Origin: an uncultured Dehalococcoidia bacterium
Lineage (GTDB): Bacteria; Chloroflexota; Dehalococcoidia; Lucifugimonadales; UBA3495
Reading direction: 5' to 3'
Assembly (NCBI GenBank): GCA_950072105.1
Contig: CATMOE010000018.1
Span: forward strand, 1-56,351
DNA length: 56,351 nt
In this document: in pieces, positions 17,355-35,386 of the stretch
Numbering within the stretch: the first letter of the stretch is position 1
Layout: every line of letters starts with the position of its first letter
Translations under genes and position numbers: made by a program
The notes under the pieces: generated by a model
Database searches by the model: none
What the model was told of the DNA's origin: nothing
The model's input: the letters and a program-made list of their open reading frames with translations, nothing else

Positions 17355-17873
17355 ATGGACGCCATCCCGGCTTGTCAAACTGCTGATCACGGGACACAGG
17401 GGTTCACTCTTGTGGAGGTTTTGGTGGCCATGGGAATAATGTCCCTAGCTATTGGGTTGGCCGGCAGCGGGCTATTCCAGGTATTTTCCTTCCAAACTTC
17501 ATACCAGGATAAAGTAGTTGCCACCAAAGACCTGCGGCACGCCGGCAGTTGGTTCTCCGGAGACGCTCTAAACGCCCAAGCGGCCGTGGATGGGAACGGA
17601 GAACCTTTGGACTGCCTTTCAGCGTCCGACAGCATAACTCTCAGCTGGACGGACAACGACGGCGCCTATCATTCATCCACCTACCAAGTCTCCGGGGATT
17701 CCTTCGAAAGAGAATACGACGGACTGGTCAACACCCTGGCCGAACACGTAGTGACCGATTCGGTAGGATTTCTCCACTGCGGCAATCTATTGACACTGGA
17801 ACTTGAGGTGGAAGCCGATTCCGGGGAGGCTAAGAACACCGTCCTCCGGACTTACCTGCGGAGACAGGAGTAA
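17355..17873 (+). CDS. Minor type IV pilin
   Basis: AAGGAG RBS; QG|FTLVEVLVAMGIMSLAIG N-methylation motif. Confidence 0.85.
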   Translation: MDAIPACQTADHGTQGFTLVEVLVAMGIMSLAIGLAGSGLFQVFSFQTSYQDKVVATKDLRHAGSWFSGDALNAQAAVDGNGEPLDCLSASDSITLSWTDNDGAYHSSTYQVSGDSFEREYDGLVNTLAEHVVTDSVGFLHCGNLLTLELEVEADSGEAKNTVLRTYLRRQE

Positions 17874-17876
17874 GGG

Positions 17877-19322
17877 ATGAAAAGACTGTGCCGCGGCCAA
17901 TCCGGAGGGGTGGCCATGTTGTTAGTCGTTGGGTTTATGTTGTTTGGGGTTGCCGTGGTCACCAGCAACCTTCGCCTATCCACCGTCCTGAGCACCGATT
18001 CCCAGGTCAAGAACGATATCCTAAACCGCCAATATTGCGCTCTGGGGGTAATAGAGTATGTTCGTTACCTTACCCTGGACGCCCAGCGCTGGGCCGATTG
18101 GTGGACCGCCCACCCAGACGGCACGGATACGACCTTCCCTTGCGGCGATGGCGCTCCGGGGGGAATCGACATCGTTTTGACCGGCGATCCAACCGCCTCG
18201 CCAGTCACCAGTGACGAAAGTCTTTTGGAAGGAGCGTCACTCTGGCCTCCGCCGGCCTACAGCAGCAGAAAGATCCAGCCGGTGAAAACGGTGAGCACCA
18301 CCAGCGAAGCCGTTTCAGCCGATAAAACACCCTTTACCTACACGATTACTCTGACCAACCGAGACGATAGTTCTATATCGCTGAACAAGATCCACGACAA
18401 CCTGCCACCCGGCCTAAAGTTCCTATGCGGCGGCACGTCCACCCTATTATTCCCCGACGGCGTGACCCAACAAACGGTGGCCCCCGATCCTGATGAAGGC
18501 CAAACTGTCTGCCCTCTGGACCGGCACATCGTATGGAACGTTACATTGCTGCCAACTCTCCAGCCCTACGAGTCGGTCGTGTTAACCTTTGACGCTGATC
18601 GGTCGGGCTCAATATTGAGCGACGGCAACTATTGCAATGAAGCCTGGGCTGAACCCGGGGACGATAACACCAAAACCGGTATGACCGCGCCGGTGAAGGT
18701 AGGCAGCGTTGCCGCAGACGATGATGTTTGCGAGGGGACTTCACCCGGCGCCAAGATCACCAAAGTAATAAGCCAGATCGTCGACGCCGTTCCCACCGGA
18801 TCTCCTCTTCCCTCGGACACCTACCAACTCACGGTTGAATATTCGATAGAGATCGAGAACGTTGGGCCGGTGTCTTTGAACCTCGGCCCCAGCGGCGCTA
18901 CCGGCTACGGCATCCGGGACCTGCTCCCACTTGGGTTCTGCTTCGTTGATGACTCCGCCACGTTTCAAAGCGCCAGCCTAGCGAACCCTTCTACCAACAT
19001 TCCTCAAGGCAGCAATCTTTGCCCTTCTTCAGACACTCGGCAGAGACTGGATTGGGATTTTTCTGAATCGATACCCAGCGGAGAGACAAGGACCCTGATT
19101 TACCGGACAGCCGCACTGGTTTCGGCCGGCAACTATTGGAGCGATCTTTTAGTCAACTTTACCGAATTCACCGACCCTTCGGTATACACCTGGCCGAGCG
19201 CGGTGGTCATGGTTAGAGATTCCTTCACGGCCGAGGCCAGCGTGGATGGCCGCGCCATAGTTTCCTTCAACGTGTCCATGGGCGGCAATTCCGGAAGCAT
19301 CGTCGATTTCGTGATCGAATGA
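17877..19322 (+). CDS. PilX/TadG-like pilus accessory protein with two DUF11-like Ig domains
   Basis: RGQSG|GVAMLLVVGFML N-terminus lacking E+5; two repeats of K(T/V)...(F/V)xYxIxIxN...IxDxLPxGxxF; several Cys pairs. Confidence 0.7.
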   Translation: MKRLCRGQSGGVAMLLVVGFMLFGVAVVTSNLRLSTVLSTDSQVKNDILNRQYCALGVIEYVRYLTLDAQRWADWWTAHPDGTDTTFPCGDGAPGGIDIVLTGDPTASPVTSDESLLEGASLWPPPAYSSRKIQPVKTVSTTSEAVSADKTPFTYTITLTNRDDSSISLNKIHDNLPPGLKFLCGGTSTLLFPDGVTQQTVAPDPDEGQTVCPLDRHIVWNVTLLPTLQPYESVVLTFDADRSGSILSDGNYCNEAWAEPGDDNTKTGMTAPVKVGSVAADDDVCEGTSPGAKITKVISQIVDAVPTGSPLPSDTYQLTVEYSIEIENVGPVSLNLGPSGATGYGIRDLLPLGFCFVDDSATFQSASLANPSTNIPQGSNLCPSSDTRQRLDWDFSESIPSGETRTLIYRTAALVSAGNYWSDLLVNFTEFTDPSVYTWPSAVVMVRDSFTAEASVDGRAIVSFNVSMGGNSGSIVDFVIE

Positions 19323-19378
19323 ACCGCCATTCCTGCAACCTACCGCCCCTTAGCCTAGCCAGCAAAATGGATGCTTTG

Positions 19379-19413
19379 GAGGCCGCCTGAAGTAGGCGGC
19401 CTCATTTATTTTT
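19379..19413 (+). terminator. Intrinsic terminator after the pilin cluster
   Basis: GAGGCCGCCT-GAAGT-AGGCGGCCTC followed by ATTTATTTTT. Confidence 0.8.
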
Positions 19414-19713
19414 ATATGTTCATGCGGACACGAACCTATTCCGCGGAAACCAGCCATAGTTAGCCAACGTAATCAACGCACATTGTGTGAGAAGGAATAA
19501 GATTCTTCAATCTGGCTCGTGAATCAAGGAATACGGGTCACCGTCGTGATTGCCACAAACCACACATCCTCCATTGGAACTTCCTTACCGCCCCAGGAAG
19601 CCCACCTCCCCTTATGGCCATCTATACCCACGAACAATGCCCTAAGGCGCAAACCCGGTTATACTGCTGCCACCCCTCGATCCCGGCGAACCGAACAAGA
19701 TATCAGGAGTAAA

Positions 19714-20901
19714 ATGATGACCCCTAGTTCTCCTACCAAAGTGCTGGAAGGCGTTCGAATCTTGGAACTTGCCCGGTGGCAAGCCGCACCCAGGGGATCA
19801 CTGATACTGCGGGACATGGGCGCGGAGGTGATCAAGATCGAATGGCGGAAAGGGGCGGACCTCCGGAATTCGGGCCCATTCGTTGGCGACATGAGCGTTC
19901 AGTTCGCCGCCTATAACCGGGGCAAGAAGAGCATCACCCTCAACACCCGCCATCCCGAAGGGAAAAGGCTGTTCTTAGACCTGGTCGGTGTTTCCGACGT
20001 GGTGCTGGAAAACTTCCGGCCGGGCACGATGAACGATATGGAGTTTGGCTACGATGCCATGTGCCAAGTCAATCCCGGCATCATTCTGGCGTCGGTATCG
20101 GGATTCGGACAGTACGGCCCTTACCGGGACCGTCAATGCTTCGACCCCATCATCCAAGCCATGAGCGGCCTCGGAGACCAGACGGGCAGAGGCTTTGGGC
20201 AGCCCATCATGGCCGAGGGGCCGATCATGGACCGCACCGCCGCCCTGCACGCCGCGGTGGGTATCCTGGGGGCGTTAAGACACCGGGACCGGACCGGAGA
20301 AGGCCAATGGCTGGAAGTAGCCATGCTTGACGGCGGTATATCTCTGGAAGAAGTCGCCCTGGCGATGTGCTACGAAACCGGCACTAACGACTTCAAACGA
20401 AGCGGTACTTTTCTCCAATGCAAGGATGGCTGGGTAACAACAGGAGCGGCCCGGGCCGGTATGTGGGAGCGGATGCTCAAAGTCATGGGGTATAGCGACC
20501 TGGCAGAAGACCCAGAGTACGCGGCGCCCATGTTCGCCACCGACAAGGCGGAGATCCGCATGGAATTGCTCCACCTTTGGTGTGAAGAAAGACCGGTGAA
20601 GGACGTGGAGGATGCCCTGGTCGGCGCAGATATTCCCGTGGGGCGGGCCATGACCATACCCGACGTGTTGGAAGACCGCCACATCTGGGAGCGGGAAGTG
20701 ATGATGGAAACCGAACTGGAAGGTCAACCCGGCAAGAAGATGCTTGTCCCCGGACCCACTTTCATCAAATTCTCCAAGACCCCAACGACGGCGGGACCGA
20801 TCCCCAAGTATGGGGAACATAACCAGGAGATCTACGGCAGCCTCTTGGGCCTGGACGAAAACCGGCTGGCAGCGATGGTAGATGAGGGTGTCATCACCTA
20901 A
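19714..20901 (+). CDS. Family III CoA-transferase (CaiB/BaiF)
   Basis: LEGVRILEL, MGAEVIKIE, NRGKKSITLN, ENFRPG, SGFGQYGPY; AGGAG RBS before ATG 19714. Confidence 0.92.
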   Translation: MMTPSSPTKVLEGVRILELARWQAAPRGSLILRDMGAEVIKIEWRKGADLRNSGPFVGDMSVQFAAYNRGKKSITLNTRHPEGKRLFLDLVGVSDVVLENFRPGTMNDMEFGYDAMCQVNPGIILASVSGFGQYGPYRDRQCFDPIIQAMSGLGDQTGRGFGQPIMAEGPIMDRTAALHAAVGILGALRHRDRTGEGQWLEVAMLDGGISLEEVALAMCYETGTNDFKRSGTFLQCKDGWVTTGAARAGMWERMLKVMGYSDLAEDPEYAAPMFATDKAEIRMELLHLWCEERPVKDVEDALVGADIPVGRAMTIPDVLEDRHIWEREVMMETELEGQPGKKMLVPGPTFIKFSKTPTTAGPIPKYGEHNQEIYGSLLGLDENRLAAMVDEGVIT

Positions 20902-20915
20902 CCGGCTCCCACGTC

Positions 20916-22091
20916 CTAGATCCGTACTTGGAACATGGGGACTACTTTAGCGCCCTCGCCCGGCTCAATCCGGAAGCTGAAGCCATTATCCTTACGCTGT
21001 TCCAGGTTGTTTACCTTGCCCGCGTTGAGCACCTTCACCTGTTTGTCCCTTACCGCCATGGTGATGTGGGTATCGCACAATTGATGTAACCGGCCTAATA
21101 AGTCAGGCGCGAATGCGCCTGCTTGGGCCACGACAACGATGGCCCTTCCCCCGGTGCACAGCTCTTTGAAAATGGAAAAGAATCCCATGATCGTCCGGTC
21201 TTGGCAGATCATCGCCAGGTCGGTGATCTCGTCGATAACAACCAACGCGCAAGACTTCGGAAGGCAGTGGATCTTGGATGCCAGCGCGCCGAAATAGGAT
21301 TCGGGAGTTACCTCAGGAGAGGGTCTGGAGATTGATTGGACCAACAGTTTGTTATCTTGAAGCGCCTCCGACACGTCCCTACCCATGGAGCCCATCTCTT
21401 GGCTAAGGTCTTCGACGGTTTGACTTGAGCTGAAGAGGGCTACTTTGTTGCCCTCCATGATTGCTCCGTACATCAGGTATTGGCAGATCAAGCCTTTACC
21501 GGAGTCCAAAGGACCTTCGATCAACGTTAGACTTTCACTGGCAAGCCCTCCACCCAGAACCAACCGCAAAGGAGCCAAGCCGCCCCCGGCGCTAACGAAC
21601 TTGCTGGATTGGCCGGGAGATTTTAGGGCCGGCTGAGCGTCCGGCAGGACTTCTTCCGTTGGCAGTTCCCACTCGGCCTCATCCTGCAGCGCCTCACCGC
21701 TTGGTTCTTCCTCCACTGGATCCTGTCCTTCCCGCAGCGCCACTCTGATGTGGGTCGCCAGAACCTCAAAATTGCACGGCTTGGTCAGAACATTAGAGGC
21801 CCCCAACCGCAGGCACTCCGCCTCCGTCTCGTAAGACGGAATGGAAGTCAGCATGATCACGGGTATCGCTCTGGTTCTCGGGTTTCCCTTTAAGTTAGAC
21901 AGCACTTGACTCCCGCCCATACCCGGCAAGTCAAAGTCTAATAGCATCAGATCGATGGGCTCGCGAGCAGCAGTCTCAAGGGCGGTCTTTCCATCGGTGG
22001 CTTGATCAACTTGGTGTCCAATATCGCCGAGGCTGGCGTTCAACCATTTTCTGATCGCCGAATGACTATCAACTATGAGGACTCTGGCCAT
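20916..22091 (-). CDS. Receiver domain fused to an ArlH/FlaH (KaiC/RecA-like) ATPase domain
   Basis: N-terminal REC (LIVDS, LLDFDLPG, MLTS, TKP), acidic linker, then SLTLIEGPLDSGKGLICQYLMYGA...LVVIDEIT...FSFRIEPGEGAKVVP resembling archaellum FlaH. Confidence 0.8.
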   Translation of the reverse strand: MARVLIVDSHSAIRKWLNASLGDIGHQVDQATDGKTALETAAREPIDLMLLDFDLPGMGGSQVLSNLKGNPRTRAIPVIMLTSIPSYETEAECLRLGASNVLTKPCNFEVLATHIRVALREGQDPVEEEPSGEALQDEAEWELPTEEVLPDAQPALKSPGQSSKFVSAGGGLAPLRLVLGGGLASESLTLIEGPLDSGKGLICQYLMYGAIMEGNKVALFSSSQTVEDLSQEMGSMGRDVSEALQDNKLLVQSISRPSPEVTPESYFGALASKIHCLPKSCALVVIDEITDLAMICQDRTIMGFFSIFKELCTGGRAIVVVAQAGAFAPDLLGRLHQLCDTHITMAVRDKQVKVLNAGKVNNLEQRKDNGFSFRIEPGEGAKVVPMFQVRI

Positions 22092-22487
22092 TTCCACCTT
22101 CCTTCTTCCTTCCGCTAACGGCAGCGTTATCGAACACGTTACCAACGTCCCTCGATCAGGGCTAGGGTATTACCACCAAGGGAACTGCGGGGATGACACC
22201 CCAAGGCGCCGAAAATATCGGATTGGCGGCCTGCACCAGAGTTGTTATTGGGGCCTGGCTTTCCACTATCCTCACGATGGATCCGCTCGCCTACCTGGTT
22301 CGCTTGAAGGTAACGCCGGGCGCTGTTACACTACCGGGACGCCGCCGGGCCGGGCTTTTATAGCTACAGAGAGAGGGTCATCGAACCTGAATCTGAACCG
22401 TAGCGAGGTAGGATTAACCGCATCCAACGGACCGTGATCTAGATTCGGGCATCCGTCCCGGCGTACCCATTACAAAAGTCGAGGTTA

Positions 22488-26201: not shown

Positions 26202-26893
26202 ATGGACGAAGAGACGATCCAAGTAAGTGTCCGCCCTGAAACCTCAGTCACGGCGGTCAGGACCATGCCGGACACCGAACCAGCCAATGGCCTGTTCATC
26301 TACGCTCCGGGAGCGGGTTCCGACATCAACGACCCCTTCGGGAGCTATTTAAGCCAGCAGCTGGTTCTGGCAGGATTCGCCTTCGTCCGATTTCAATTTC
26401 CCTACATGGAGGCCGGGAAACGCCGGCCCGACCAGGTCTCGCTACTGGAAGAGACATGAAAGCAGGTCATTGAGACGGTGAAGATCGCTGACATTAAGTT
26501 GATCATCGGTGGACGGTCGATGGGCGGGCGTATCGCATCTCATGTCGCCGCCCAGGGTGCCGCTGTCGACGCAGTGGCCTTGTTTGCTTACCCTCTCCAC
26601 CCACCGGGGAACCCAACTAAGCGCGGGACAGTCACCTGCCGCAAATCGCGTCTCCGGCGCTTTTCTGCTCCGGCACCAGAGACACCTTCGCCACGCCCGA
26701 AGAGTTGGCGGCGGCCGCTGCCACGGTTCCCAGGGCAACGGTCCACCCGCTGGAAGGCGCGGATCACGGATTTGCCGTGCTCAAGTCCAGCGGACGAACC
26801 AAGGAAGACGTCTGGAGCGAGGCCACTGCATTCTTGCTTTCGTGGCTCGAAACCGAAGTTCTTGACAGCGGCGGCGCCGCCCATCTACGCTAA
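26202..26893 (+). pseudogene. Alpha/beta hydrolase (KANL3/Tex30-like), with an in-frame TGA (26457-26459) and a frameshift (~26622)
   Basis: APGAG..RFQFPYM, GGRSMGGR nucleophile elbow, YPLHPPG, then in another frame SGTRDTFA and EGADHGF. Confidence 0.8.
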
Positions 26894-26977
26894 CCCCCAG
26901 CGGCGGACCCTGCCCAAGTTCGCCGCATCCGCATCAGGCAGAGCCATCCCTCCAGACCAACTCTGAGAGGCAGCGCT

Positions 26978-31958: not shown

Positions 31959-33544
31959 TCAGGCCTTGGCCGTGATTGGGTCGACGGAAAACTGGGCGCG
32001 CCAGTCGTCGATTCCTCCTTGTAGGGCCACGGCGTTGATTCCTTTTTGTCGAAGTTGATGCGCCGCACGGGCGCTGGTAGCTTCATCGTGTCAAGCGCAA
32101 TAGGCGACTACCATCCGATCTTCGGGGAGATCAGCGGCCCACTCCAAGATTTGATCCGGCAGCACCCGAACGCTTCCCGGTATTTGGGAGCCGTCATGAT
32201 CGTAGCTGGCTCGAGCTCTTACGTCGAGGATCACCGGCGGGTTGGTGCCGGACATCAGTTCGGCCAATTCATCCACTGAGACTCTTGGTACCTCGCCGGC
32301 ATGCTGCCCAAACAGTCCGGCGACGGTAGCCTCCTTTTCCTCTTCAAGAATCTCGCGGGAGGCCCTTCGCCCGTACCATGCGCTAACCGGGGTTGCCGAT
32401 GCTCCATGAATGGTGACCGAGGCCAGCACCACCACTCCGATGGTCGCCAAGAGCAACTCAGAGCCGGGAATGCCCGCTTGAACTACCAGCAAGGCAAGCA
32501 AAAGCGAATTCAAACCTCGCGGACCGAACCAGGACACGAAGGCCCGAGCCTCCCAACTTAACTTGGCCCGGGACAACACCAGGGCCAACACCGGCGGTCG
32601 AATCAGGAATATCACCAACACCGCCAAGATCAACGCCGGTCCAACGGCCACCGATCCCAGAATCCCAGAGAGAACCGCCCCGAATAGAACAAAAGCGAGA
32701 AGCATCGCCATTTCCGAGGCGATCTCGCCGAAATCCAGGAAGCATTCGCATAATGATTGGTTCAGCACCACCACCGCCACTCCGGCGGCGAAGGAGGCCA
32801 GGAACCCATCTCCCCCCACCGCCACGGCTCCCGCGTATGACGCCAGGACCAACCCGACGCCGTAGAGCGCTTGGTGCTCCTCCCTAATGGCCATGCGGGC
32901 GTCAATCTTGTTCATCGCCCAAGACCCGATCCCTCCGATGGCGAATCCGATGATGGGCCCCAATACCAGCAACTTCGCCATGAAGACGGTCCACTGGGCC
33001 GCTCCTCCGGCCTGGGCTCTGGCCACGGCGATCAGGACCAGTATCGCCGGAAGCACGATGATGTCGTTGGTCCCGGCTTCAAACTTAAGTACCTGGCGTA
33101 CGGAGCGGGGGATCCGTCCATCGCACACTATCTCCCTAAGGACGACCGGGTCAGTGGAAGCCAAGATAGCCCCGCCGATAAACCCATCAGCCAGGGAAAT
33201 CCTAGTAAAAGGGCCAGTGCAACCGCTCCAAGCCCAATGATGATCCCGGTGCCAGGGCCCAATACCAGGGCCGGCACCAGCCATCCCTTGCCCAGTTCGG
33301 CGATCTGCAACTTAACCGCGTCGAGGAATAGCACCAGATCTAGCGTTAGCGTGGCGACAACTTCCAGGAGGGGACTGTGCGGTCCGATATCAATAGCGCC
33401 AATACCGCCCCGGCCCAGCAAGAAGCCCAGGCCGAGGAACATCATCGGAAAGGACAGCGGCGAGCGCTCAACCAGCCCAGACGCCAGGGCGGTAACCGTC
33501 AGAACGATGGCGATGACGCCGATGATTAGGATGAACTCAGGCAC
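31959..33544 (-). CDS. NhaP/CPA1-type cation:proton antiporter fused to a C-terminal rhodanese domain; probable selenocysteine at UGA 32091-32093; apparent 1-nt frameshift at ~33180
   Basis: ILASTDPVV, EAGTND and WFGPRG antiporter motifs; rhodanese VILDVR...QIPGSV...VVAYCA-UGA-HDEATSARAAHQLRQKGINAVALQGGIDDW to the next stop at 31959. Confidence 0.8.
32051..32090 (-). promoter_or_regulatory. Candidate bacterial SECIS element
   Basis: mRNA after UGA: CACGAUGAAGCUACCA-GCGCC-CGUGC-GGCGC-AUCAACUUC; apical loop starts at +22 with G at loop position 2; lower GAAG/CUUC pairing. Confidence 0.5.
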
Positions 33545-33693: not shown

Positions 33694-34935
33694 TCACTCA
33701 GTGAACAAAACCCCGGCGATTGAGACTAGGGAGCCGAACTGCTCGTCGGCGGGACATTGGTCGTAGGCGACCACTTCACCCCGGGTCTCGGGCAGAATCG
33801 CCAGCATGTAGCGGATGGGCGACGCGCCACAGATCCTGGTAGCGTCTCCCTTGCTGCGCATGTGGTCTGCCAGGCGTTCGCTGCTCCCAGTACAGGCCAC
33901 TTCCAGCCATTCCTCGTCGCTCGTTCGGATCCTGGCCTTGCCTGCCAGATCCAGGGGAAGGGAGCCGCTGAAAGCAGGCCCAACATGACTAAGGTCGCCG
34001 GCGGCAACCACGAGAGTATTCTGTTCCGCCACGACATCGGCCAGGAAGGACAGGGCGTCTTGAAGGACGCCGTTGGTTTCCGCGCCTTTCTCCACCAAGT
34101 TTTCGTCCACCCCGCAGAGAATAGGGAGCATACGCTTAGGCTTGCCCCCCGCAAAGTAGTGCAGCCAAACCGAAGCCAACTCCACCGAATGTTCTCCGAT
34201 GTGGTGGACCTCTTCCTGGAACGCGCCGTCCTCGCCAAGAATCTCCACCAAGCCATCAACCAGGCTCGTGTCCGTGGGCAATTGTCCCCAAGGAGTGGCG
34301 TAATCTTGACGGGTCAAGGTCAGTTTGCCGGGGCTGCCGGAGTGGTCCGTACCCAGTAGGATAATCAACTCGGCATCTTCAACCGCCTTTTGGGCCGGCT
34401 GCCAAGTTTCCGCATAAGTGCGCCACCCTCGCTTGTAGTCGATATGGGGGCTGATCAGGCCCGCGATGCGTTTGGAGCCGCCATCGCCATCTTTCAGGAC
34501 ATGTCCCCCGCCATCGGCGTTGGCGTTACTGCAATAAACGTCGAATGCCTCCCGCAACTCGTCTCCGTTGTTAGGATAGGCGCTGCCGGCCAAAGACGAC
34601 GGACGGAAAGGTCCCGAACGGTAGTTGTCCATCACCTTAGCCATCGCCCCTTGGAAACGCTGGTTGTCCAGCAAAAACGCGTCATCCAGACTCTTGATAA
34701 ACGCATCGACCTGGCTCGAATCCAGTTGTATACCCGTGCGAAGGAGAAACCCGGTACGCAGCGCATCCGGGTTTCGAGTGCCGTCCAGCATGGCCAGCAT
34801 CGGGGCGATAGTCCGGGGCACCATGAAGTAGCCTTCGCCAAGCCTTAGGGGATCTTGTATGGAAAGGACTTCCTCCCCTTGCCAGTTGACCCAATGGAGA
34901 CTAAGAGGACGCAGTTTGGGTAATTCTTGGTCCAT
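33694..34935 (-). CDS. AmmeMemoRadiSam protein B / MEMO1-family protein
   Basis: LAGSAYP, GLISPHIDY, LGTDH, EHSVEL, GDLSHVG, ICG. Confidence 0.88.
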   Translation of the reverse strand: MDQELPKLRPLSLHWVNWQGEEVLSIQDPLRLGEGYFMVPRTIAPMLAMLDGTRNPDALRTGFLLRTGIQLDSSQVDAFIKSLDDAFLLDNQRFQGAMAKVMDNYRSGPFRPSSLAGSAYPNNGDELREAFDVYCSNANADGGGHVLKDGDGGSKRIAGLISPHIDYKRGWRTYAETWQPAQKAVEDAELIILLGTDHSGSPGKLTLTRQDYATPWGQLPTDTSLVDGLVEILGEDGAFQEEVHHIGEHSVELASVWLHYFAGGKPKRMLPILCGVDENLVEKGAETNGVLQDALSFLADVVAEQNTLVVAAGDLSHVGPAFSGSLPLDLAGKARIRTSDEEWLEVACTGSSERLADHMRSKGDATRICGASPIRYMLAILPETRGEVVAYDQCPADEQFGSLVSIAGVLFTE

Positions 34936-35158
34936 CGGGAGGATTATATACGAAACACGGCAAAATTGAGGTGTTTGACCGGTTTGTTTTACGAGGAATT
35001 CCAGAGTTTAACAATTCGGTCCGGCGGTGAATTAACGCTCATGGGCAGGATGTTGAAAAGGACTAGCCTTTTTGTCACCCGAAATATCGCCCTAAAGGGT
35101 GATGCCGCGAAGAACGACCGAGGAGTAACGTGAATTGAATTCATCAAGGAGCGGAATC

Positions 35159-35386
35159 ATGACAGCTTACGCAGTTAGGAAAATAGAAAAGGTAGTCGAG
35201 GAAGCCGAGGCGATTGCCGTCGAAGCATCGGTCGAGTCCCTCAATATGGCCAACAGTCCCGTATGCGCCCATCACTGGATCATAGAGTCAGCCAACGGCC
35301 CGGTTAGCCAAGGGCAATGCCAGAACTGCTTAGAAGTTCGGGGTTTCAAGAATTTTGTGGATGCCTACCACCAAGACGACGACTAA
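35159..35386 (+). CDS. Small Cys/His (zinc-ribbon-like) hypothetical protein
   Basis: AAGGAG RBS; CAHHWIIESANGPVSQGQCQNC...FKN. Confidence 0.65.
   Translation: MTAYAVRKIEKVVEEAEAIAVEASVESLNMANSPVCAHHWIIESANGPVSQGQCQNCLEVRGFKNFVDAYHQDDD

What the first reader, a model, noticed from the sequence alone, without database searches (positions are those of the whole stretch)
31959..33544. Probable selenoprotein: cation:proton antiporter fused to a C-x-U rhodanese domain
Seen: the ORF-track stop (UGA 32091-32093) falls in the middle of a rhodanese fold, at the active-site loop (VVAYCA*HDEATSAR). The same frame continues 43 codons with clear rhodanese C-terminal sequence (ARAAHQLRQKG..AVALQGGIDDW) before a second stop at 31959. 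Known: related rhodanese domains carry YCxCPxExxSA at this position, and UGA aligned to a conserved Cys is the standard signature of Sec; Sec-containing rhodanese-like proteins exist. Inference: a Na+(K+)/H+ antiporter with a cytoplasmic Cys-x-Sec redox or sulfur-transfer domain, i.e. possible redox/persulfide-gated ion exchange. I do not know this fusion as described.
Basis: partly seen in the sequence, partly recalled or inferred. Interest (0 to 1): 0.85.

Follow-up and report, generated by a model that had tools for sequence, protein, structure and literature searches.

The report
Broken copy of selenoprotein antiporter gene
The apparent stop codon marks a real and widespread kind of bacterial ion exchanger whose tail carries the rare amino acid selenocysteine and which gene catalogues cut short, but the copy in this marine bacterium is frameshifted and decaying, so the protein has to be studied in relatives.

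Summary
The UGA at 32093-32091 is a selenocysteine codon by every genomic test. selA, selB, selC and selD are present. Of 26 other Dehalococcoidia loci, 24 keep TGA, one has TGT and one TGG. A SECIS-like hairpin shows the gene's strongest synonymous constraint.

The family is a CPA1 cation/H+ antiporter fused to a C-x-U rhodanese related to NF041203. It also has a near-invariant C-x-C on the transporter's predicted cytoplasmic TM9-TM10 loop, the likely partner of the C-x-U.

The deletion is real and is shared by three other loci of this species. Two of them have further frameshifts and all three have a SECIS-breaking change. This copy is therefore most likely a young pseudogene.

The Sec domain is catalogued and JGI names the Cys-form architecture. 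I found no paper on the selenoprotein fusion. This scan reported the family before on other DNA (six notes). Gating is untested.

The parts
33128..33544 (-). 5' piece of the broken gene: GTG start, codons 1-120 of the antiporter (TM1-TM4 and start of TM5), then 18 out-of-frame residues and TAG
   Evidence: PF00999 positions 4-104; 89-94% identity to congeners
33183..33184 (-). Site of the 1-bp deletion (one base missing between these two positions relative to congeners)
   Evidence: blastn against L026/L057, L032, L097; no gap against contigs of X1, X5 and RNA run X14; shared by L094, L098, L099
33179..33185 (-). In-frame G_GGU_UUA heptamer created by the deletion (X_XXY_YYZ form; a -1 slip would reach the antiporter frame); probably fortuitous
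   Evidence: sequence; no stable downstream structure, z +0.96 and +0.29; second frameshifts in L098 and L099
31962..33182 (-). 3' piece in another frame: antiporter TM5-TM13, linker and rhodanese domain (residues 122-528 in intact numbering)
   Evidence: PF00999 E 1e-28 and PF00581 E 2e-12
33063..33158 (-). CPA motif positions 1-7: S-T-D-P (33158-33147), E (33080), N-D (33068-33063); position 8 Arg lies at 32600-32598
   Evidence: D132, E156, N160, D161 and R316 invariant in 65 sequences; motif definition in PMC6181914
32742..32750 (-). C-E-C (family C-D-C) on the TM9-TM10 loop of the antiporter; proposed partner of the rhodanese C-x-U
   Evidence: C266 in 65 of 65 and C268 in 62 of 65; between helices 247-260 and 267-298 of the model
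31995..32279 (-). Rhodanese-fold domain related to NF041203 rhodanese_LYCAU
   Evidence: PF00581; NF041203 89.1 bits, cut-off 115
32091..32099 (-). C-A-U motif: Cys codon 32099-32097, Sec codon TGA 32093-32091
32060..32074 (-). SECIS-like hairpin: 5-bp G+C stem and 5-nt loop with G in second place, starting 16 nt after the UGA
   Evidence: predicted fold (not exceptional against shuffles, z -0.6); 98.6% of cells paired in 14 sequences, no two-sided change; synonymous identity 0.72-1.0 at codons +6 to +10 against median 0.35
31959..31961 (-). True stop codon (TGA)
   Evidence: homologues stop 43-53 codons after the Sec codon with TAA, TAG or TGA

Best explanation
Family. A 13-helix CPA1 (electroneutral) monovalent cation/H+ antiporter of about 528 residues carries a C-terminal cytoplasmic rhodanese-fold domain with a C-x-U pair. 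SelB reads the hairpin 16 nt after the UGA and inserts Sec; without Sec insertion the product stops inside the fold. (Shown by genomics: codon, machinery, hairpin constraint, fold, transport motif. About 95%.) Mechanism (inferred, about 45%): the C-x-U pair at the start of the rhodanese active-site helix senses or carries an oxidising or sulfane-sulfur signal, and exchanges it with the near-invariant C-x-C on the cytoplasmic TM9-TM10 loop, switching K+(Na+)/H+ exchange. This resembles ligand gating of KefC by glutathione, but works through covalent Se/S chemistry. The cation is undecided: S1 is K+-type, P4 is Na+-type. This copy (about 85%): a young pseudogene. A 1-bp deletion after codon 120, shared by all loci of the species examined, cuts the protein before the ion-binding helices, and further lesions are accumulating. 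The confidence given is for 'real Sec fusion family, broken copy here'; the gating step has its own lower odds.
For: Sec machinery: tRNA-Sec 66.4 bits, selA 550, selB 352 and selD 385 bits, all over cut-off; selB in 30 of 31 and selA in 30 of 31 genomes I picked for carrying a match. Codon column: TGA in 24 of 26 distinct other loci and in 15 of 15 published-genome full-length fusions from other Chloroflexota orders. 110 of 120 database homologues end at x-C-x just before that column, 3 read through with C, 1 with S, 6 other. For a second subtype, 93 of 120 end there, 22 read through with C, 1 with G, 4 other. Synonymous constraint peaks at codons +6 to +10; the top 8-codon window scores 0.77 against a median of 0.36 over 508 windows. 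AlphaFold model of an intact relative has pLDDT 87 and pTM 0.84; best PDB matches are PaNhaP and MjNhaP1. C-x-C is in 116 of 118, 119 of 119 and 20 of 22 rhodanese-bearing proteins, but in only 12 of 64 proteins of the Pro-motif sister group. Pseudogene: the deletion is in X1, X5 and X14 contigs and in L094, L098 and L099; L099 has a further 8-bp and L098 a 4-bp deletion. The change at 32062 breaks a SECIS pair that never varied in 14 sequences, and is in L094, L098, L099 and X5. Within the species there are 9 non-synonymous and 3 synonymous changes, against 11 and 29 on the older branch (Fisher p 0.006).
Against: No experiment shows Sec incorporation, transport or gating. The hairpin alone is not more stable than shuffles and shows no compensatory two-sided change. 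The domain scores below the NF041203 cut-off (89 < 115). C-x-C also occurs in 12 of 64 sister proteins, and in 24 of 76 representatives with no detected rhodanese (some may be fragments), so it does not strictly need the rhodanese. Its loop is the second least confident part of the model (block pLDDT 69), and I could not measure its distance to the C-x-U. The neighbourhood is not conserved beyond close kin, so it gives no pathway clue. Against the pseudogene reading: dN/dS to congeners is still 0.05-0.21, like neighbouring genes at 0.05-0.14, so decay is recent. The window itself keeps an intact SECIS and CPA motif, and an RNA library holds contigs over most of the gene. Raw reads (X23) did not cover the deletion.
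Confidence: 0.82

Rival explanations
1. The window's copy is still expressed: ribosomes slip -1 on the G_GGU_UUA heptamer made by the deletion and produce a little full-length selenoprotein.
For: The heptamer is in the correct frame and -1 is the shift needed. An AGGA lies 14 nt upstream. In E. coli 61% of such heptamers were above background without stimulators (PMC4066793, passages). The window keeps its SECIS.
Against: No stable downstream structure. No relative has the heptamer. Two of three other loci of the species have a second frameshift downstream, and all three break the SECIS. Changes within the species look neutral.
Confidence: 0.06
2. Split gene: the TAG of the 5' piece overlaps an in-frame GTG (33128) behind AGGGAG, so re-initiation makes a membrane-anchored Sec-rhodanese without transport function.
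For: Overlap and purine-rich stretch seen in the sequence. A congener (L032, L095) keeps a frame-preserving deletion of about 160 codons that removes the ion-binding core but keeps the rhodanese and TGA.
Against: The spacer is only 3 nt and the same bases are in intact congeners. Neither piece would hold S-T-D-P. L098 and L099 frameshift this 3' piece, and the SECIS is broken in three loci.
Confidence: 0.07
3. Family-level alternative: C-x-U and C-x-C together bind a soft metal or metalloid (Zn, Hg, As and the like), which regulates the antiporter or is handed to it, with no redox relay.
For: Four S/Se ligands are conserved together. Other Sec-bearing transport proteins are mostly tied to metal resistance (PMC13188914, passages). 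The domain also hits the ChrE model weakly (59 bits, cut-off 120).
Against: No metal-resistance genes recur among the neighbours of 13 loci compared. The cation/H+ site is fully conserved.
Confidence: 0.22
4. Family-level alternative: the rhodanese is an independent sulfur- or selenium-transfer or reductase enzyme that only uses the antiporter as a membrane anchor; transport is not controlled by it.
For: The same C-x-U/C-x-C domain occurs stand-alone in Chloroflexota (L081, L082, L084-L086, L088, L089, L091), and rhodanese-less sister antiporters exist.
Against: The fusion persists across two subtypes about 40% identical. The transporter C-x-C becomes near-invariant in the fused clade.
Confidence: 0.2
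5. The UGA is a plain nonsense mutation, or the frameshift is an assembly error.
For: The gene is broken anyway, so a second lesion would be unsurprising a priori.
Against: TGA is kept in 24 of 26 and 15 of 15 other loci. The deletion is present in contigs of three runs from three studies and in three further loci; X1 and X5 are flagged as possible sources of this DNA.
Confidence: 0.02

Closest known systems
[quoted passage not shown]
   Same: Rhodanese fold, Y-C-x-U motif, match over model positions 15-120 of 126 (E 2e-25); stand-alone relatives share the same hairpin.
   Different: The model is a 126-position stand-alone equivalog; this domain scores 89 bits against a cut-off of 115 and is fused to a 13-helix antiporter. 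Neither review has the words antiporter or exchanger in its main text.
CPA1 antiporters PaNhaP (4cz8, 4cz9, 4cza) and MjNhaP1 (4czb); K+/H+ antiporter models PRK05326
   Same: NhaA-type fold (TM-score to target 0.71-0.74); motif x-T-D-P...E...N-D...R with spacings 23 and 155; G-P-R-G.
   Different: Only 17-19% identity; Ser at motif position 1; C-x-C on the TM9-TM10 loop; C-terminal rhodanese; far below the PRK05326 cut-offs (112 against 355 bits).
JGI automatic label 'NhaP-type Na+/H+ or K+/H+ antiporter/rhodanese-related sulfurtransferase' (P0134, P0142, P0149, P0161)
   Same: Same two-domain architecture, in full-length Cys (C-x-C) forms.
   Different: A pipeline label, not a study. The majority forms that end at the Sec column are labelled antiporter only.
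KefC glutathione-gated K+/H+ exchanger (8by2)
   Same: CPA transporter with a cytoplasmic regulatory domain responding to thiol chemistry (function recalled; structural match E 1e-8).
   Different: KefC is CPA2 with a KTN/RCK domain binding glutathione non-covalently (recalled). Here the transporter is CPA1 with a rhodanese C-x-U.
Sec-bearing transport proteins listed in PMC13188914 (MerT-like, P-type ATPase, YeeE/YedE, SaoB/P/X, SO_0444) and the rhodanese/DsbD fusion TsoB
   Same: Sec in or beside a membrane transport protein; rhodanese fused to a membrane domain (TsoB).
   Different: None is a cation/proton antiporter (passages); TsoB has UxxxxU.

Membership tests
Bacterial selenoprotein | selA, selB, selC and selD in the genome | tested here: met
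   all over curated cut-offs
Bacterial selenoprotein | In-frame UGA aligned with Cys in homologues, sequence conserved on both sides | tested here: met
Bacterial selenoprotein | SECIS stem-loop just downstream of the UGA | tested here: met
   Hairpin 32074-32060 with peak synonymous constraint; bSECISearch not available; no compensatory changes seen
Bacterial selenoprotein | Uninterrupted frame from start to the UGA (this copy) | tested here: not met
   1-bp deletion after codon 120; met in intact relatives such as L027, L043 and L058
Bacterial selenoprotein | Sec shown in the protein | not testable with these tools
   needs 75Se labelling or mass spectrometry
NF041203 rhodanese_LYCAU | Score at or above 115 bits, stand-alone protein of about 126 aa | tested here: not met
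   89.1 bits (U read as C); fused
NF041203 rhodanese_LYCAU | Rhodanese fold with C-x-U motif | tested here: met
CPA1 antiporter (PMC6181914) | Glu at motif position 5, N-D at 6-7, Arg at 8 | tested here: met
   E156, N160, D161 and R316 invariant in 65 sequences; present in the window's 3' frame
CPA1 antiporter (PMC6181914) | NhaA fold with two broken helices | tested here: met
   Model of relative L043: breaks at 130-132 and 340-344; Foldseek to PaNhaP and MjNhaP1
K+-selective CPA1 (NhaP-II K+ clade) | Ser at position 1 and Ala at position 4 | tested here: inconclusive
   S-T-D-P in 235 of 240 proteins: Ser met, Ala not met (rule)
CPA1 antiporter (PMC6181914) | Measured cation/H+ exchange | not testable with these tools
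   no assay
Thiosulfate sulfurtransferase (GlpE/PspE type) | Sulfurtransferase activity through a persulfide on the single loop Cys | not testable with these tools
   GlpE model only 22 bits against a cut-off of 102; the loop has an extra C-x-U arrangement

The most novel reading that the evidence does not exclude
A widespread, undescribed class of selenocysteine-gated ion exchangers. A Sec-rhodanese passes an oxidation or persulfide signal directly to a C-x-C built into the transporter's cytoplasmic face, so cation/proton exchange, and with it cytoplasmic pH and K+, is switched by redox state. Because failed Sec insertion truncates the domain, it would also be switched by selenium supply. This species preserves a recent loss of the system.
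Probability: 0.4. Interest if true: 0.8.

Novelty: new variant of a known kind. Interest (0 to 1): 0.55.

Why it matters
Current selenoprotein catalogues hold no cation/proton antiporter that I could find. Public gene calls cut most members of this family at the Sec codon (110 of 120 and 93 of 120 top homologues), so a redox-active domain on a common transporter has been hidden. The paired C-x-U and C-x-C give a direct, testable model of covalent redox gating of a CPA1 antiporter, and natural Cys forms exist for easy expression. For this locus the lesson is practical: it is a decaying copy and a poor experimental choice. It does show a selenoprotein gene being lost (frameshift first, then SECIS and further lesions) in a genome that keeps its Sec machinery.

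Tried and rejected
Assembly error for the frameshift: rejected, as three runs and three further loci carry it. Raw reads of X23 gave only 3 reads, none at the deletion, so allele frequency is unknown.

Programmed -1 frameshift: considered because of G_GGU_UUA and judged unlikely. The paper's value for this heptamer is in a figure I could not see.

Hairpin stability and covariation as proof of SECIS: uninformative (z -0.6 to -0.8; no two-sided changes). The synonymous test was used instead.

Loss of Sec machinery as the cause of the TGT and TGG forms: rejected, as G038 and G053 keep selA and selB.

Conserved operon: none. Neighbours recur only among close kin.

Second copy in this genome: none found by tblastn of either domain.

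C-x-C as exclusive to the fusion: rejected.

A complex prediction of the two domains was not obtained, so whether C-x-U can reach C-x-C is open.

ChrE literature gave nothing usable (listing only).

The pattern scan's L093 and L100 are unrelated transporters matched by chance and were dropped. L096 is identical to the window and is not counted as independent.

Full report
Observation. The TGA at 32093-32091 (- strand) lies in V-V-A-Y-C-A-*-H-D-E-A-T-S-A-R and is followed by 43 sense codons and a TGA at 31961-31959. Read through, the C-terminal 123 residues give a complete Pfam rhodanese domain (profile 1-101 of 102), and the upstream region is a sodium/hydrogen exchanger domain. Alignment with congeners shows one base missing between 33184 and 33183, just after codon 120. 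The intact gene would be 528 codons with Sec at 485. The window is contig C18 of a 4.08-Mb genome, 92% complete. Titles of the closest named relatives are Dehalococcoidia, Chloroflexota and SAR202.

The UGA is a Sec codon. The genome has tRNA-Sec (66.4 bits), selA (550), selB (352) and selD (385, itself with one TGA), all over curated cut-offs. Of 60 related genomes, 12 including this one had a match, and a GTDB scan gave 23 loci. Across those 38 loci, 32 rows matched the rhodanese and 30 covered the column. After removing the window itself and three duplicate rows, 24 of 26 have TGA, one TGT (L029) and one TGG (L031). In a sample of 401 Chloroflexota genomes, 16 others matched at E below 1e-30, each with one TGA. 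Leaving out one unpublished genome, 15 of 15 are full-length fusions with TGA at the column, and two more (L080, L092) are a second, more distant fusion subtype with TGA. selB was found in 30 of 31 and selA in 30 of 31 genomes I chose because they carry a match; the two misses are 86% and 67% complete, and the TGT and TGG carriers keep both genes. This is a selected set with no background rate.

Protein databases show the truncation. Of the 120 best homologues of an intact relative, 110 end at x-C-x just before the column, 3 continue with Cys, 1 with Ser and 6 are other. For the second subtype the counts are 93, 22 with Cys, 1 with Gly and 4 other; source labels there include Pyrinomonadaceae, Roseiflexaceae, Gammaproteobacteria and Capsulimonas.

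SECIS. A 5-bp stem with a 5-nt loop (32074-32060) begins 16 nt after the UGA. It is not unusually stable (z -0.6) and shows no two-sided change, though 98.6% of cells pair in 14 sequences, against 20-60% for slid controls. The better test is synonymous: in a codon alignment of 32 TGA-bearing genes, codons +6 to +10 are identical in 0.72-1.0 of same-residue pairs against a site median of 0.35, and the top 8-codon window of 508 lies there (0.77, median 0.36). Kin are not independent, but the peak falls on the hairpin.

What the protein is. The rhodanese matches NF041203 rhodanese_LYCAU at 89 bits, below its cut-off of 115. In 65 aligned fusions D132, E156, N160, D161 and R316 are invariant, with spacings of 23 and 155. 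This meets the CPA1 (electroneutral) motif of PMC6181914 (passages). Positions 1-4 are S-T-D-P in 235 of 240 proteins; that paper gives Ser1 plus Ala4 for most K+-selective CPA1s, so selectivity is undecided. An AlphaFold model of relative L043 (Sec as Cys; pLDDT 87, pTM 0.84) has 13 membrane helices, two of them broken, then a rhodanese fold whose strand 479-482 is followed by C483-x-U485 and a helix from 486. Its best PDB matches are PaNhaP and MjNhaP1 (also by sequence).

A partner motif. The transporter carries L-C-D-C-F-x-E-Y-G-E between helices 9 and 10: C266 in 65 of 65 and C268 in 62 of 65; the window's copy has C-E-C. By helix count, the basic residues of the alternating loops, and the recalled topology of archaeal NhaP (C-terminus inside), this loop is on the same side as the rhodanese (inference). 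C-x-C is in 116 of 118, 119 of 119 and 20 of 22 rhodanese-bearing proteins of three searches. Among the 150 representatives (31 did not cover the loop) it is in 26 of 29 S..P-motif proteins but only 12 of 64 Pro-motif sister antiporters. It is thus older than the fusion but becomes fixed with it. I infer a thiol/selenol relay that gates transport (about 45%); metal binding by the four ligands (about 22%) and an independent enzyme on a membrane anchor (about 20%) are the rivals. The distance between the motifs was not obtained. Neighbours are not conserved beyond close kin.

This copy is broken. Contigs of DNA runs X1 and X5 span the whole stretch with no gap, and a contig of RNA run X14 spans 33062-33517 with no gap (X1 and X5 may be sources of this DNA; X23 gave 3 reads, none there). 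A pattern scan of metagenomes gave 8 loci: 2 unrelated, 1 identical to the window, 3 at 99% or more identity that all have the deletion, and 2 congeners without it. Of the three, L099 has a further 8-bp and L098 a 4-bp deletion. All three, and X5, have the change at 32062 that breaks a stem pair never varying in 14 sequences. Substitutions within the species are 9 non-synonymous to 3 synonymous, against 11 to 29 on the branch from congeners after removing two shared sites (Fisher p 0.006; polymorphism is always somewhat enriched for non-synonymous change). The upstream gene shows no difference over 332 codons in L094 and L099. dN/dS to congeners is still 0.05-0.21, so the loss is recent. Congeners are also damaged: L026 has Y-Y-A-U and paired 4+5-bp deletions, L032 and L095 lack about 160 codons of the ion-binding core, and L053 has two 1-bp insertions. 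The deletion happens to create an in-frame G_GGU_UUA heptamer. Many such heptamers slip weakly in E. coli (PMC4066793, passages), but no strong downstream structure, its absence in relatives and the second lesions argue against selected frameshifting.

What is known. The 2026 review PMC13188914 and the 2022 review PMC9312934 (passages) list the CxU rhodanese and several Sec-bearing transport proteins, with no occurrence of 'antiporter' or 'exchanger'. The deep-Sep and BSepDB papers have neither word nor 'rhodanese' in their main text. BSepDB was built by tblastn with known families (passages), so these genes may sit in it under the rhodanese name; I could not query it and opened no supplements. 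PMC1976440 reports a UxU form of the family (passages). Searches for selenoprotein+rhodanese+antiporter (7 papers), rhodanese+antiporter+fused+NhaP (0) and selenocysteine+antiporter+Chloroflexota (3) listed no title on this fusion (listings only; the library lacks most subscription journals). JGI's pipeline names the Cys-form architecture. Six earlier notes of this scan report the same family in other genomes, and two report Sec-rhodanese K+ channel fusions; I did not check their loci.

Verdict. A real selenoprotein fusion family, apparently undescribed in print: a new variant of known kinds, with a specific and testable gating hypothesis. The locus in hand is most likely a young pseudogene of it. 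Interest 0.55.

Noticed in passing
G000 contig C23, about 17631-22111 (outside the window): Array of 29 tRNA genes on one strand within 4.5 kb (contig identified by coordinates shared), typical of mobile tRNA arrays.
   Followed up: no
G000:C60:2148-3071 (L020): selD is itself a selenoprotein (C-A-G-U-A-G-K) with a strong hairpin after the UGA, -21.8 kcal/mol, unlike the short hairpin of the antiporter gene.
   Followed up: partly
G000:C10:42575-42682 (L018): Short selB-like fragment (44-aa open frame) about 1 kb upstream of the full selB.
   Followed up: no
L090 and L083: Stand-alone rhodaneses with other Sec patterns: U-x-U in L090 (form reported in PMC1976440) and Y-C-T-G-A-T-U in L083, where the TGA is three codons later.
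   Followed up: no
L080:130-1851, L092:1480-3279: Second fusion subtype, about 40% identical, with a long low-complexity linker; found beyond Chloroflexota by source labels and richer in Cys forms.
   Followed up: partly
window 26202-26966 (+): An alpha/beta-hydrolase-like gene appears broken into pieces in different frames (ORFs 26202-26459 and 26478-26966; G-G-R-S-M-G-G motif; family recalled), possibly another pseudogene.
   Followed up: no
window 35135-35386 (+): 83-aa ORF with C-x-H-H-W and C-x-x-C, no Pfam or NCBIfam hit; 84% identical in a congener.
   Followed up: partly
window 33694-34935 (-): AmmeMemoRadiSam protein B (Memo family) with a 110-residue N-terminal extension, 150 bp upstream on the same strand; adjacent only within the genus.
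   Followed up: partly
L029 (G038): The Cys (TGT) form keeps a 5-bp hairpin at the SECIS position with different bases, in a genome that still has selA and selB; may be chance from Ser-Ala-Arg-Ala-Ala codons.
   Followed up: no
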